A stretch of 64,000 bases of DNA from Escherichia phage JP4, in sequence record PQ330092; one strand, 5' to 3'. The position numbers and the translations under genes were made by a program. The notes below the pieces were generated by a model. That model was not told where the DNA came from. It saw only the letters and a program-made list of their open reading frames with translations, and searched no databases. Below, piece after piece: positions 34,868-35,314 of this stretch (positions within the stretch are counted from its first letter, which is position 1; every line of letters starts with the position of its first letter).

Positions 34868-35058
34868 TGCGTAAAGGGATCTAGTACTGATTCAGAAAAA
34901 AGTCAAGGCGTTTTTAAAATTATGCGTTAAAAAAATGCATAGGTAATCCCTTGACTTTTTTGAAATAAAAGGGATTGGACTATGGCAAAATGCGTAGGGG
35001 GCTAAAGGGCGGGTAACCTTAGCGACTTCGATAAAGGGGTATTACGAATAAAATGTTA

Positions 35059-35086
35059 TTGATTTTTTATACGAATCGTATATTAT
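35059..35086 (+). promoter_or_regulatory. Candidate promoter TTGATT-16-TATTAT for the paralog array
   Basis: Only promoter-like site between repeat end (35020) and first array gene. Confidence 0.45.
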
Positions 35087-35116
35087 AGGATTGATATTAT
35101 TTTTAATGGAGTCCCT

Positions 35117-35314
35117 ATGCGTATTTTAACTAAAGAACAGCACCACGAAAGACTTATCAATAACATGGCTATGATAATGTATAAGTCCCATGACCGTGGT
35201 ATTGCCTATAAGCGTGAATTAATTATGGCACTATTCATTGGAACTAACTTTCAGGAAAGGTATGTCAACGATTGGATTTGGTATTTAATTGAAGATATAA
35301 CGAGTAAACTATGA
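35117..35314 (+). CDS. Array paralog, short class (65 aa), FIGTNFQERYV motif
   Basis: First gene of array; promoter 35059-35086 and SD TGGAG upstream. Confidence 0.7.
   Translation: MRILTKEQHHERLINNMAMIMYKSHDRGIAYKRELIMALFIGTNFQERYVNDWIWYLIEDITSKL

What the first reader, a model, noticed from the sequence alone, without database searches (positions are those of the whole stretch)
35020..35117. Sharp change in composition and gene architecture at the repeat/array junction
Left of 35020 genes use E. coli-like codons (frequent CTG, CGT, GGT), each with its own strong promoter. Right of it genes are visibly more AT-rich (TTA, ATA, AGA), lack individual promoters and overlap. Yet the AGTACT/GTACT bias continues, arguing that both parts belong to the same replicon. 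Short GC-rich islands (about 50672-50690 GCCGCAGGGGGGTC and about 50785-50805 CCCCGCCCCCGC) interrupt the AT-rich array.
Basis: seen in the sequence. Interest (0 to 1): 0.4.

Follow-up and report, generated by a model that had tools for sequence, protein, structure and literature searches.

The report
Inner edge of phage terminal repeat
The sharp change at 35020 is real, and it marks the inner end of the 20-kb direct terminal repeat of a known type of jumbo E. coli phage, where a block of separately promoted early genes meets a genus-specific tandem array of duplicated small genes.

Summary
GC falls from 38.3% (14906-35019) to 32.3% (35020-64000), with a maximum-likelihood change point at 35040. 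E. coli codon adaptation index (CAI) falls from 0.33 to 0.18-0.22. The median gap between genes goes from +84 to -4 nt. Perfect sigma-70 promoters go from 11 to 0.

Position 35019 is the last base of a 20,114-bp direct terminal repeat (DTR) of an Asteriusvirus (PBECO4/121Q-like) jumbo phage. Window 1-14905 is an exact second copy. Four public genomes start at the base matching 14906, and the DTR annotated in vB_Ec-M-J ends at the base matching 35019. The artificial join is therefore 14905/14906, not 35020, which is contiguous in all relatives.

- **Left of the junction:** about 24 single-gene cassettes, each with a promoter carrying AGTACT, a GC hairpin and a ribosome-binding site. Some whole cassettes are shared with unrelated coliphages.
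- **Right of the junction:** 29 overlapping paralogs (phrog_4148), then at least 36 of a second family. Both are found only in this genus.

In one relative pair the DTR is 93.6% identical, the core genes 81.5%, and the arrays cannot be aligned.

The DTR and the array are already published. The composition step and the cassette sharing are modest additions.

The parts
1..14905 (+). Partial second copy of the direct terminal repeat (DTR). By inference it is the right-end copy, and its first 5,209 bp lie upstream of the window.
   Evidence: It is 100% identical, base for base, to 20115-35019 at an offset of 20114. The first mismatch is at 14906 / 35020.
14905..14906 (.). Join of the repeat's right end to the genome's left physical end. 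This is an artefact of how the linear record was closed or assembled, not a natural junction.
   Evidence: None of 36 related records holds this join as contiguous sequence, and every match splits exactly here. Records CRJP21, E9.1, fEgEco12 and vB_Ec-M-J begin at the base matching 14906. G17, in reverse orientation, ends at the base matching 14905.
14906..35019 (+). Complete copy of the 20,114-bp DTR. It holds about 50 small ORFs, nearly all on the + strand, mostly as single-gene cassettes.
   Evidence: The DTR annotated in vB_Ec-M-J (1-21525) ends at the homologous base. fEgEco12 has a 20,993-bp DTR shown by PhageTerm and restriction digests (PMC13070987).
14906..15980 (.). Left-terminal stretch of 1,075 bp with no ORF of 45 aa or more. 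It is rich in AGTACT and contains a palindromic hairpin at 15428-15461.
17014..33712 (+). About 24 early-promoter cassettes. Each has an A-tract, TTGACA or TTGCAA, a 16-17 nt spacer that usually contains AGTACT, TATAAT, GTTTTACATCA, a GC hairpin (GGGGAGAA...TTCTCCCC) and a ribosome-binding site.
   Evidence: Fifteen of 24 have AGTACT in the spacer, and 15 of 24 have a 5'-UTR hairpin of -9.6 to -17.3 kcal/mol.
34658..34867 (+). Last ORF of the repeat (69 aa).
34896..34961 (.). Hairpin with a 13-bp stem (AAAAAAGTCAAGG ... CCTTGACTTTTTT) followed by a T-run. It looks like a terminator and closes the last repeat cassette 58 nt before the boundary.
   Evidence: Read from the sequence and the fold. 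The region is 97% conserved in vB_Ec-M-J.
35019..35020 (.). Inner boundary between the DTR and unique sequence (...GGGCGGGTAACCT | TAGCGACTTCGA...).
   Evidence: The flank is conserved in PBECO4, ECO103 4-12-1 and vB_Ec-M-J.
35020..35116 (+). The 97-nt leader of the array. It has a sigma-70-like site (TTGATT-N16-TATTAT, 35059-35086) and a ribosome-binding site (GGAG, 35108-35111). PBECO4 carries an extra 121-aa gene at this spot.
35117..41474 (+). Tandem array of 29 overlapping paralogs of 52-96 aa with the motif LGTNYQE (phrog_4148).
   Evidence: AlphaFold2 gives pLDDT 97 and four helices, with no PDB match. BFVD matches are Asteriusvirus proteins or unnamed entries.
41464..63664 (+). Second paralog family, at least 36 members of 100-207 aa, with an invariant F-Q in the motif EExxFQxSLV. 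Four family-1 genes are interspersed (42775-43223, 55821-56208).
   Evidence: AlphaFold2 gives pLDDT 88.7, with no PDB match.
50649..50846 (+). Non-coding spacer of 198 nt that holds the two GC-rich islands (50663-50679, 50780-50794) and a promoter-like site (TTGACA-N17-AAAAAT, 50661-50689).
   Evidence: It is conserved at 90-99% in at least 29 relatives. There is no Rfam match, and folding is no better than in shuffled sequence (z = 0.25).

Best explanation
Position 35019/35020 is the inner boundary of the left direct terminal repeat (DTR) of an Asteriusvirus (PBECO4/121Q-like) jumbo coliphage. The two sides differ because they are two different kinds of genome segment.

The 20.1-kb DTR is an early, host-RNA-polymerase-read region. 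It is built from about 24 self-contained cassettes. Each has an A-tract, a near-consensus sigma-70 promoter carrying AGTACT, a conserved start region, a GC-rich 5'-UTR hairpin, a ribosome-binding site and one small ORF. These cassettes are drawn from a pool that circulates among virulent coliphages. Their codons sit closer to host usage and avoid AGA and ATA.

The last cassette ends in a terminator-like hairpin 58 nt before the boundary. Forty nucleotides after the boundary, a single weaker sigma-70-like promoter heads a long run of translationally coupled, AT-rich, low-CAI paralogs. These arose by tandem duplication inside this genus and diverge fast.

Shown here:
- the exact repeat and its ends;
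- the step in composition, codon usage and promoters;
- the paralog families;
- the sharing of cassettes with other phages;
- the order of conservation, DTR above core genes above arrays.

Inferred:
- early expression of the DTR genes;
- transcription of the array as an operon;
- recombinational exchange as the reason the DTR is more conserved than the core;
- dependence of the AT-rich genes on phage-encoded tRNAs.
For: The repeat and its ends.
- Window 1-14905 equals 20115-35019 exactly, and the match ends at 35019.
- Four related records start at the base matching 14906, and G17 ends at the base matching 14905.
- The DTR annotated in vB_Ec-M-J ends at the base matching 35019.
- DTRs of about 20-21 kb are published for fEgEco12 (PhageTerm plus restriction digests), Sharanji and G17.

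The step.
- GC change point at 35040; codon usage and gene spacing; promoters and terminators; CAI.
- In a whole related genome (ECO103 4-12-1, overall GC 34.1%), the two DTR bins have the highest GC of any 10-kb bin (38.8% overall). Their median CAI (0.31-0.32) is exceeded by only one bin. The bin that begins the array has the lowest median CAI (0.180).

Cassette pool.
- The DTR used as a query hits 210 phage records from many genera. An equal-length query right of the junction hits 35, all Escherichia or Salmonella phages and largely the same set as the other Asteriusvirus hits.
- Vequintavirinae phage W70 shares whole small genes and promoter/UTR segments with the DTR at 72-90% nucleotide identity.
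- Between ECO103 4-12-1 and Turkey5, the DTR is 93.6% identical, a 25-kb DNA polymerase-portal-capsid block is 81.5% identical, and the arrays cannot be aligned by blastn. Both paralog families are nevertheless present in Turkey5 at the same site.
- A DTR kinase-like gene also lies in the DTR of Klebsiella phage fENko-Kae01.

Arrays.
- 29 tandem plus 4 dispersed family-1 genes and at least 36 family-2 genes.
- Family 1 is found only in Escherichia and Salmonella phages of the same Asteriusvirus set.
- The distance between fixed anchors either side of the array varies from 7,230 to 8,250 bp among relatives.

tRNAs. The relative encodes tRNA-Arg(TCT) and tRNA-Gly(TCC). AGA is 9-11% of Arg codons in the DTR and 36-40% just right of it.
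Against: - There are no transcription data for this phage group, so 'early' and 'operon' are read from sequence motifs alone.
- The promoter heading the array matches only 9 of 12 consensus positions. Read-through or unrecognised phage-specific promoters cannot be excluded.
- My gene calls are simple longest-ORF calls.
- The DTR-versus-core comparison uses megablast and blastn identities over aligned parts of one genome pair, not a phylogenetic test.
- No sequencing reads are available, so the termini of this particular phage are inferred from relatives.
- The higher GC of the DTR also appears at codon positions 1 and 2. Codon adaptation alone therefore cannot be the cause.
Confidence: 0.85

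Rival explanations
1. The junction at 35020 is an assembly chimera that joins DNA of two different origins.
For: Composition, gene layout and conservation all change abruptly within about 300 nt. The window does contain one unnatural join.
Against: That unnatural join is 14905/14906, not 35020. The 35020 junction is crossed without a break in 26 independent genomes covering at least 80% of 33000-38000. The 250 nt around it are 97% identical in vB_Ec-M-J. The same layout, DTR followed by the family-1 array, is present in the distant relative Turkey5.
Confidence: 0.01
2. The AT-rich arrays are a foreign island acquired horizontally and inserted next to the repeat. The repeat shows the phage's native composition.
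For: The arrays are below the genome's mean GC (32.3% against 34.1%) and have the lowest CAI. Two stretches (34889-40040, 42707-50960) lack the genome-wide AGTACT signature. Neither paralog family has a Pfam match.
Against: The DTR is the larger outlier from the genome mean (+4.7 points against -1.9). The DTR is also the part that shares DNA with other phage genera. The arrays are present at the same site in all 35-36 relatives found and have no homologs outside that set of Escherichia and Salmonella phages. Family-2 members also occur at 273-313 kb of the related genome.
Confidence: 0.04
3. The step is caused purely by translational selection tied to timing. DTR genes must be translated by the unmodified host before the phage tRNAs appear. 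Later genes are free to drift AT-rich. No gene exchange is needed.
For: CAI is among the highest in the genome for the DTR and lowest just after it. AGA and ATA are avoided in the DTR. The related phage carries tRNA-Arg(TCT), tRNA-Gly(TCC) and others. Each DTR gene has a strong promoter and ribosome-binding site. Terminal-redundancy early modules are known from SPO1 (PMC6873191).
Against: GC also differs by 8 points at codon positions 1 and 2, so the proteins themselves differ in composition. The array has its own sigma-70-like promoter and may also be early. Selection on codons does not explain 93.6% DTR identity against 81.5% core identity, nor whole cassettes shared with Vequintavirinae. 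This is best seen as a contributing cause within the main explanation.
Confidence: 0.25
4. The higher GC of the repeat comes from GC-biased gene conversion. The terminal repeats recombine in every infection cycle.
For: Terminal repeats are recombination substrates for making circles or concatemers (PMC13070987). The GC rise ends exactly at the repeat boundary. The DTR appears homogenised between lineages.
Against: Non-coding DNA in the DTR is only about 34% GC by subtraction, so the rise is mainly in coding sequence. Part of the extra GC is in functional hairpins. The first kb of the DTR is not GC-rich enough to stand out, at 0.388. The bias itself was not tested.
Confidence: 0.07

Closest known systems
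Direct terminal repeats of Asteriusvirus jumbo phages (fEgEco12 20,993 bp; vB_Ec-M-J 21,525 bp; Sharanji 20,668 bp; G17 about 20 kb)
   Same: Both boundaries are homologous to the nucleotide. The gene content and the position of the following array are the same.
   Different: The length here is 20,114 bp. Lengths in relatives run from 20.1 to 22.5 kb because cassettes are gained and lost. The papers read for this group do not mention the composition or codon step, the promoters or the cassette sharing (term searches).
[quoted passage not shown] From my own knowledge, also the pre-early genes in the terminal repeat of phage T5.
   Same: Many small genes of unknown function sit inside a long terminal repeat. 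Each gene or small group has a strong host-type promoter and ribosome-binding site (PMC6873191).
   Different: No sequence homology was sought or seen. Early timing and toxicity to the host are experimentally shown for SPO1 and only inferred here. Whether DNA entry is stepwise, as in T5, is unknown for this phage.
PeSL (promoter-early stem-loop) cassettes that shuffle genes in hyperplastic regions of T4-type phages (Arbiol 2010; Comeau 2014)
   Same: Composite conserved units of an AT-rich tract, a sigma-70-like promoter, a stem-loop and a ribosome-binding site flank small variable ORFs, and they join otherwise unrelated sequences (PMC4122927). Four elements have an A3G3...C3T3 stem like the nt-1 type.
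   Different: In 15 of 24 cassettes the stem-loop lies downstream of the promoter, in the 5' UTR, not upstream. The spacer carries AGTACT. The region is a terminal repeat, and exchange partners include non-T4 coliphages such as Vequintavirinae.
[quoted passage not shown] 2017), noted again for phAPEC6
   Same: The family (phrog_4148) is the same, and the locus directly after the repeat is the same in 121Q.
   Different: This copy has 29 tandem members. A relative has about 22-25, and the span varies by about 1 kb between genomes. The second family, with at least 36 members, and its F-Q motif are not mentioned in the passages of those papers that I read.
Predicted 22.5-kb terminal repeat and early region of phage CBB (RaK2-like)
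   Same: A long terminal repeat carries about 51 small ORFs, with RpoD-like promoters on and next to the repeat (PMC5259590).
   Different: CBB is a distant relative. Only 3 predicted promoters lie on its repeat, against about 24 here.

Membership tests
Long direct terminal repeat of Asteriusvirus/RaK2-like phages | An exact duplicate of the terminal segment | tested here: met
   14,905 bp are 100% identical at an offset of 20114. The full unit of 20,114 bp follows from the tandem arrangement.
Long direct terminal repeat of Asteriusvirus/RaK2-like phages | Boundaries coincide with termini determined independently in relatives | tested here: met
   Four records start at the base matching 14906 and G17 ends at the base matching 14905. 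The DTR annotated in vB_Ec-M-J ends at the base matching 35019. The termini of fEgEco12 were confirmed by restriction digests.
Long direct terminal repeat of Asteriusvirus/RaK2-like phages | Doubled read depth and read-start pile-ups, or end fragments, for this phage itself | not testable with these tools
   No reads or DNA are available.
Early / host-takeover module in a terminal repeat (SPO1 type) | Cluster of small genes with strong host-type promoters and ribosome-binding sites inside the repeat | tested here: met
   About 50 ORFs. There are 11 perfect and 24 near-consensus promoters placed upstream of ORFs. Twenty-seven of 40 called genes have a Shine-Dalgarno-like 4-mer.
Early / host-takeover module in a terminal repeat (SPO1 type) | Expression in the first minutes of infection and shut-off of host functions | not testable with these tools
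   I found no transcriptome for this group. Pfam gives only hints: ParE-like toxin, DksA/TraR zinc finger and GNAT. A kinase-like product is annotated in relatives.
PeSL-type mobile regulatory cassettes | Conserved composite of a sigma-70-like promoter, a stem-loop and a ribosome-binding site flanking small ORFs | tested here: met
   Consensus aAAAAAgtA-TTG(A/C)(C/A)A-N16-TATAAT-gTTTTACATca plus a GC hairpin in 15 of 24 cassettes.
PeSL-type mobile regulatory cassettes | Stem-loop located just upstream of the promoter | tested here: inconclusive
   Four elements have the stem overlapping the -35 hexamer. In 15 of 24 the strong hairpin is downstream, in the 5' UTR. Thirteen of 24 also fold upstream at -8 kcal/mol or lower, but no shuffled-sequence control was run.
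PeSL-type mobile regulatory cassettes | Cassettes mark points of gene gain, loss or replacement between relatives and join unrelated sequences | tested here: met
   Conservation within the DTR is patchy between close relatives. DTR lengths range from 20.1 to 22.5 kb. Whole genes and promoter segments are shared with Vequintavirinae phage W70.
phrog_4148 / 121Q tandem gene array | Significant profile match and the same genomic position | tested here: met
   E-values of 6e-15 to 2e-24 to phrog_4148 for the six members tested. The array lies directly after the repeat in 121Q and 34 other records.
Horizontally acquired genomic island (for the arrays) | Presence/absence polymorphism among close relatives and homologs in other taxa | tested here: not met
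   The arrays are present in all relatives at the same site, and homologs are found only in that same set of Escherichia and Salmonella phages.
Structured RNA (for the GC-rich islands at 50663-50794) | An Rfam match, or folding energy better than shuffled sequence | tested here: not met
   No Rfam family reached its gathering score over 14906-64000. The minimum free energy is -38.9 against a shuffled mean of -40.0, z = 0.25.

The most novel reading that the evidence does not exclude
The terminal repeat is not just a packaging by-product. It is a mobile 'bank' of early-gene cassettes that is exchanged and homogenised among jumbo-phage lineages that have otherwise diverged, and traded with unrelated coliphages. 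The palindrome AGTACT is built into the cassette promoters and is 9-fold over-represented genome-wide. It would serve as a recognition site for a phage factor that regulates or recombines the cassettes. The neighbouring arrays that lack AGTACT would lie outside that system.
Probability: 0.15. Interest if true: 0.55.

Novelty: already known. Interest (0 to 1): 0.22.

Why it matters
For the scan, this finding resolves into a textbook feature. The window runs across the two ends of a linear jumbo-phage genome, and the 'junction' is the inner end of its published 20-kb terminal repeat, followed by a published tandem gene array. Knowing this prevents two errors. One is treating 35020 as a chimera. 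The other is treating 14905/14906 as real sequence.

The additions are modest.
- In a related genome, the repeat is the most GC-rich part and among the most host-codon-adapted, and it holds the densest cluster of perfect sigma-70 promoters.
- It is built from regular promoter-hairpin cassettes.
- In the one genome pair compared, it is more conserved than the capsid and polymerase genes.
- It shares cassettes with unrelated coliphages.

If confirmed, this would make the repeat a convenient place to look for host-takeover and anti-defence genes. It would also give a concrete case of cassette exchange across phage families.

Tried and rejected
- **Protein function of the paralogs.** Pfam found nothing for ten proteins of the two paralog families, and PHROGs gave only families of unknown function.
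- **Structure of the paralogs.** AlphaFold2 models of both families were confident (pLDDT 97.4 and 88.7). Neither had a PDB match below E = 2. BFVD returned only Asteriusvirus proteins or unnamed entries. No function could be assigned.
- **RNA.** Rfam over 14906-64000 found nothing, and there are no tRNA genes in the window. The two GC-rich islands can pair with each other, but the fold is no better than shuffled sequence. The structured-RNA idea was dropped.
- **AGTACT as a by-product of the family-2 motif E-Y-F.** Rejected, because the hexamer occurs in all three frames and in non-coding DNA.
- **A shared terminase recognition sequence at the two repeat boundaries.** Nothing longer than AGTACTGATT is common to both.
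- **Literature on AGTACT in jumbo phages.** No papers were found. The fEgEco12 digests did not include ScaI.
- **A first core-gene benchmark.** It landed on tail-fibre genes, which are too variable, and was replaced by a 25-kb polymerase-portal-capsid block.
- **Large protein-database searches.** Not used, because their result would not change the verdict.
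Full report
**What the window is.** Megablast of 33000-38000 finds 41 phage records, nearly all Escherichia and Salmonella jumbo phages of 310-386 kb. They include PBECO4, 121Q, G17, Sharanji and phAPEC6 (genus Asteriusvirus), at 90-97% identity. Twenty-six of them cover at least 80% of the query in one place. The window has no tRNA genes and no Rfam match.

**The 'repeat'.**
- A base-by-base comparison at an offset of 20114 shows that 1-14905 is 100% identical to 20115-35019. The first mismatch is at 14906 / 35020.
- This is what a tandem pair of 20,114-bp units looks like when the window starts 5,209 bp inside the first unit. The second unit is 14906-35019.
- A 1,200-nt query centred on 14905/14906 is not contiguous in any of 36 matching records, and every match breaks at exactly that point.
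- Records CRJP21, E9.1, fEgEco12 and vB_Ec-M-J begin at the base matching 14906. G17, deposited in the other orientation, ends at the base matching 14905.
- vB_Ec-M-J annotates 'Direct Terminal Repeats' at 1-21525. In an alignment that is 97% identical, that feature ends at the base matching window 35019.
- Published work reports direct terminal repeats (DTRs) in this group. fEgEco12 has 20,993 bp by PhageTerm, confirmed with ten restriction enzymes. Sharanji has 20,668 bp. G17 has about 20 kb from coverage.

So 14906 is the left physical end of the genome and 35019 is the inner end of the left DTR. The 14905/14906 join comes from closing a linear record that carries the repeat at both ends, or from an equivalent assembly effect.

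**Checking the observation.**
- GC is 38.3% in the repeat and 32.3% to its right. The best two-segment change point is 35040, with support from 34821 to 35305.
- The switch is complete within about 500 nt. One-kb windows hardly overlap between the two sides.
TTA stays the commonest Leu codon on the left.
- The shift is as large at codon positions 1 and 2 (0.417 against about 0.335) as at position 3. The proteins differ, not only the choice of synonymous codon.
- E. coli codon adaptation index (CAI) has a median of 0.326 on the left against 0.181 in the first array and 0.216 beyond it (p = 3e-14).
- The median intergenic gap is +84 nt on the left and -4 nt on the right.
- The left 20 kb has 11 perfect TTGACA-N16/17-TATAAT sites on the + strand and 30 terminator-like hairpins, against 13 expected. 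The next 20 kb has no perfect promoter and 7 hairpins, against 6.6 expected.

**Genome context.** I assembled a complete close relative, ECO103 4-12-1 (351,992 bp), and rotated it to the repeat start.
- Overall GC is 34.1%. The repeat is 38.8%, and its two 10-kb bins have the highest GC in the genome. The 29.5 kb after it is 32.2%.
- Median CAI is 0.31-0.32 in the two repeat bins, exceeded by only one other bin. It is lowest (0.180) in the bin that begins the array.
- This relative carries seven tRNA genes at 287-291 kb, including Arg(TCT) and Gly(TCC). AGA is avoided in the repeat and common just beyond it.

**Anatomy of the repeat.**
- Twenty-four promoter-like sites with at most two mismatches lie within 120 nt upstream of ORF starts. 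Their consensus is aAAAAAgtA-TTG(A/C)(C/A)A-N16-TATAAT-gTTTTACATca.
- Fifteen carry AGTACT in the spacer, as AGTACTgTATAAT. Most others have AAAGTAC directly before TTGCAA.
- Fifteen of 24 have an 8-9 bp GC hairpin (GGGGAGAA...TTCTCCCC, -9.6 to -17.3 kcal/mol) between the start region and the ribosome-binding site.
- Three identical copies and one variant of AAAGGGATTGACTCCGGTCAGTCCCTTTGCTATTATAT place a -35 box inside a stem.
- Of 50 ORFs, Pfam recognises only a ParE-like toxin domain, a DksA/TraR zinc finger, a GNAT acetyltransferase and three DUFs. Relatives annotate a kinase-like protein.
- That kinase-like gene (30624-31265) has 35-40% identical homologs in RaK2-like Klebsiella, Salmonella and Erwinia phages. 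In Klebsiella phage fENko-Kae01 it again lies within the annotated terminal repeat.

**The junction itself.**
- The last repeat ORF ends at 34867.
- A hairpin with a 13-bp stem and a T-run lies at 34896-34961.
- The repeat ends at 35019.
- A TTGATT-N16-TATTAT site lies at 35059-35086. It is TTGACT in relatives.
- GGAG lies at 35108-35111, and the first array gene starts at 35117.
- PBECO4 has an extra 121-aa gene (32% GC) with its own promoter-like sites between the boundary and the first array gene. Only about 13 nt right of the boundary are shared before the sequences part. The Salmonella SD phages show the same break in alignment.

**The arrays.**
- From 35117 to 41474 there are 29 overlapping ORFs of 52-96 aa. 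They share 14-40% identity and the motif LGTNYQE. Four more copies lie at 42775-43223 and 55821-56208.
- These match phrog_4148, whose function is unknown.
- A second family of at least 36 ORFs (100-207 aa) fills most of 41464-63664. It has an invariant F-Q in the motif EExxFQxSLV.
- Family 1 occurs only just right of the repeat in the relative. tblastn finds it only in Escherichia and Salmonella phage records of the same Asteriusvirus set.
- The distance between conserved anchors either side of the first array varies from 7,230 to 8,250 bp among relatives.
- Hua et al. [quoted passage not shown] The phAPEC6 paper notes the same.
- Both families give confident AlphaFold2 models, but no PDB structure matches them.

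**A second kind of boundary.** In the more distant relative Turkey5, the layout is the same: repeat, then 22 family-1 genes, then family 2. There is also a GC step, from 38.3% to 34.3%. Nucleotide conservation, however, is tiered.
- Between ECO103 4-12-1 and Turkey5, the repeat is 93.6% identical over 16.6 kb.
- A 25-kb DNA polymerase-portal-capsid block is 81.5% identical over 84% of its length.
- The arrays are essentially unalignable by blastn.

The repeat used as a megablast query hits 210 phage records, including Vequintavirinae, Phapecoctavirus and Justusliebigvirus. The equal-length query right of the junction hits 35 records, all Escherichia or Salmonella phages and largely the same set as the other Asteriusvirus hits. 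In Vequintavirinae phage W70, a 7.8-kb early region (39.1% GC) shares whole small genes with the repeat at 83-88% identity. The shared segments are 21420-21797, 21783-22077, 17079-17333 and 19795-20081. Many promoter/UTR segments match several repeat cassettes.

**Interpretation.** The repeat behaves like a hyperplastic early region built from mobile regulatory cassettes. The closest described mechanism is the PeSL (promoter-early stem-loop) system of T4-type phages, with the differences listed under 'closest known'. [quoted passage not shown] The arrays are products of tandem duplication within the genus, under a different evolutionary regime. The boundary is sharp because three limits fall within one 250-nt intergenic region: the end of a transcription unit, the end of the repeat, and the start of the array.

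Early timing, operon transcription, recombinational exchange and tRNA dependence are all inferences. Pure translational selection and GC-biased conversion may contribute, but neither explains all the data (see the rival explanations). Chimerism and a foreign origin for the arrays are not supported.

**AGTACT.**
- It is the most over-represented hexamer in the related genome, with 919 copies against 101 expected. It occurs in all three reading frames and in non-coding DNA, and is densest in the repeat.
- However, two stretches right of the junction have none (34889-40040 and 42707-50960). The chance of zero copies at the genome's coding density is 7e-6 and 6e-9.
- About a third of the GTACT sites in the first array lie next to the conserved protein motif.
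- I found no paper on this motif. Its role is unexplained.

**GC-rich islands.**
- They are real and lie in a 198-nt spacer, one of the few non-coding gaps on the right. It is conserved at 90-99% in at least 29 relatives.
- The first island is the spacer of a promoter-like site at 50661-50689.
- There is no evidence for a structured RNA.
- The likeliest reading is an internal restart of transcription ahead of the next paralog block. This is an inference.

**Verdict.** The feature is the already published DTR boundary and tandem array of Asteriusvirus phages. Interest is low. Two small open points remain: the AGTACT signature, and the unusually high conservation of the repeat together with its cassette sharing across phage families.

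Noticed in passing
window 14905/14906 (and 1-14905 against 20115-35019): Two copies of the 20,114-bp terminal repeat abut head to tail in the window. No public relative contains this join. The window appears to run across the end and start of a linear record that carries the repeat at both ends.
   Followed up: yes
whole window; related genome OR844650.1 (L002-L009): The palindrome AGTACT is the most over-represented hexamer of the phage: 919 copies against 101 expected in the relative, and 133 in the 20-kb repeat. It occurs in all reading frames and in non-coding DNA, and sits in the spacer of 15 of 24 repeat promoters. No function is known and no paper was found.
   Followed up: partly
window 34889-40040 and 42707-50960: Two stretches of 5.2 and 8.3 kb inside the paralog arrays contain no AGTACT at all, which is highly unlikely at the genome's own density. 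The family-1 array of Turkey5 does carry the motif.
   Followed up: partly
window 50649-50846: A conserved 198-nt non-coding spacer holds the two GC-rich islands and a promoter-like site. The G-run and C-run can pair, but the fold is no better than shuffled sequence and there is no Rfam match.
   Followed up: partly
window 41464-63664: At least 36 paralogs share an invariant Phe-Gln within EExxFQxSLV, often as EEYYFQ(Q/N)S. By my own recollection this resembles a TEV-protease-type site. The AlphaFold2 model is confident (pLDDT 88.7, alpha/beta) with no PDB match. The related genome has 11 more members at 273-313 kb.
   Followed up: partly
window 35117-41474: Family-1 proteins (about 70 aa, LGTNYQE motif) give a very confident four-helix model (pLDDT 97.4). 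It has no PDB match, and its only significant BFVD matches are Asteriusvirus proteins or unnamed entries.
   Followed up: partly
window 28009-28046, 31278-31315, 33536-33573 (variant at 23989): Three identical copies of AAAGGGATTGACTCCGGTCAGTCCCTTTGCTATTATAT, a hairpin whose stem contains a -35 box and is followed by a -10 box. They belong to 119-139-nt repeat families scattered through the terminal repeat.
   Followed up: partly
window 17014-33760 (5' UTRs of repeat genes): Fifteen of 24 cassettes have a conserved GC hairpin (GGGGAGAA-loop-TTCTCCCC) between the transcription start region GTTTTACATCA and the ribosome-binding site. It may stabilise the mRNA or act as a regulatory element.
   Followed up: partly
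window 14906-15980: The first 1,075 bp at the left genome end have no ORF of 45 aa or more. They hold many AGTACT sites and a palindromic hairpin, CAGTACTG...CAGTACTG, at 15428-15461. This part is poorly conserved in Turkey5. It may carry packaging or replication signals.
   Followed up: no
window 14906-35019 against L010 (Turkey5) and L004: Between two lineages, the terminal repeat is 93.6% identical while the polymerase-portal-capsid block is only 81.5% identical. This suggests that the repeat has been exchanged or homogenised more recently than the core diverged.
   Followed up: partly
window 17079-17333, 19795-20081, 21420-22077, 24278-24949; L011 (phage W70): Whole small genes and promoter/UTR segments of the repeat are 72-90% identical at the DNA level to an early region of the unrelated Vequintavirinae phage W70. 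The repeat query hits 210 phage records, against 35 for the equal-length region to its right.
   Followed up: partly
window 35020-35116; L012 (PBECO4 131970-132335): PBECO4 carries an extra 121-aa gene (32% GC, unrelated to either paralog family) exactly between the repeat boundary and the first array gene. The Salmonella SD phages show the same break in alignment, so they probably carry it too. The 97-nt leader is therefore an insertion/deletion site.
   Followed up: partly
window 30624-31265: A 213-aa protein, annotated as a serine/threonine kinase in relatives, has 35-40% identical homologs in RaK2-like Klebsiella, Salmonella and Erwinia phages. In Klebsiella phage fENko-Kae01 it again lies inside the terminal repeat.
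   Followed up: partly
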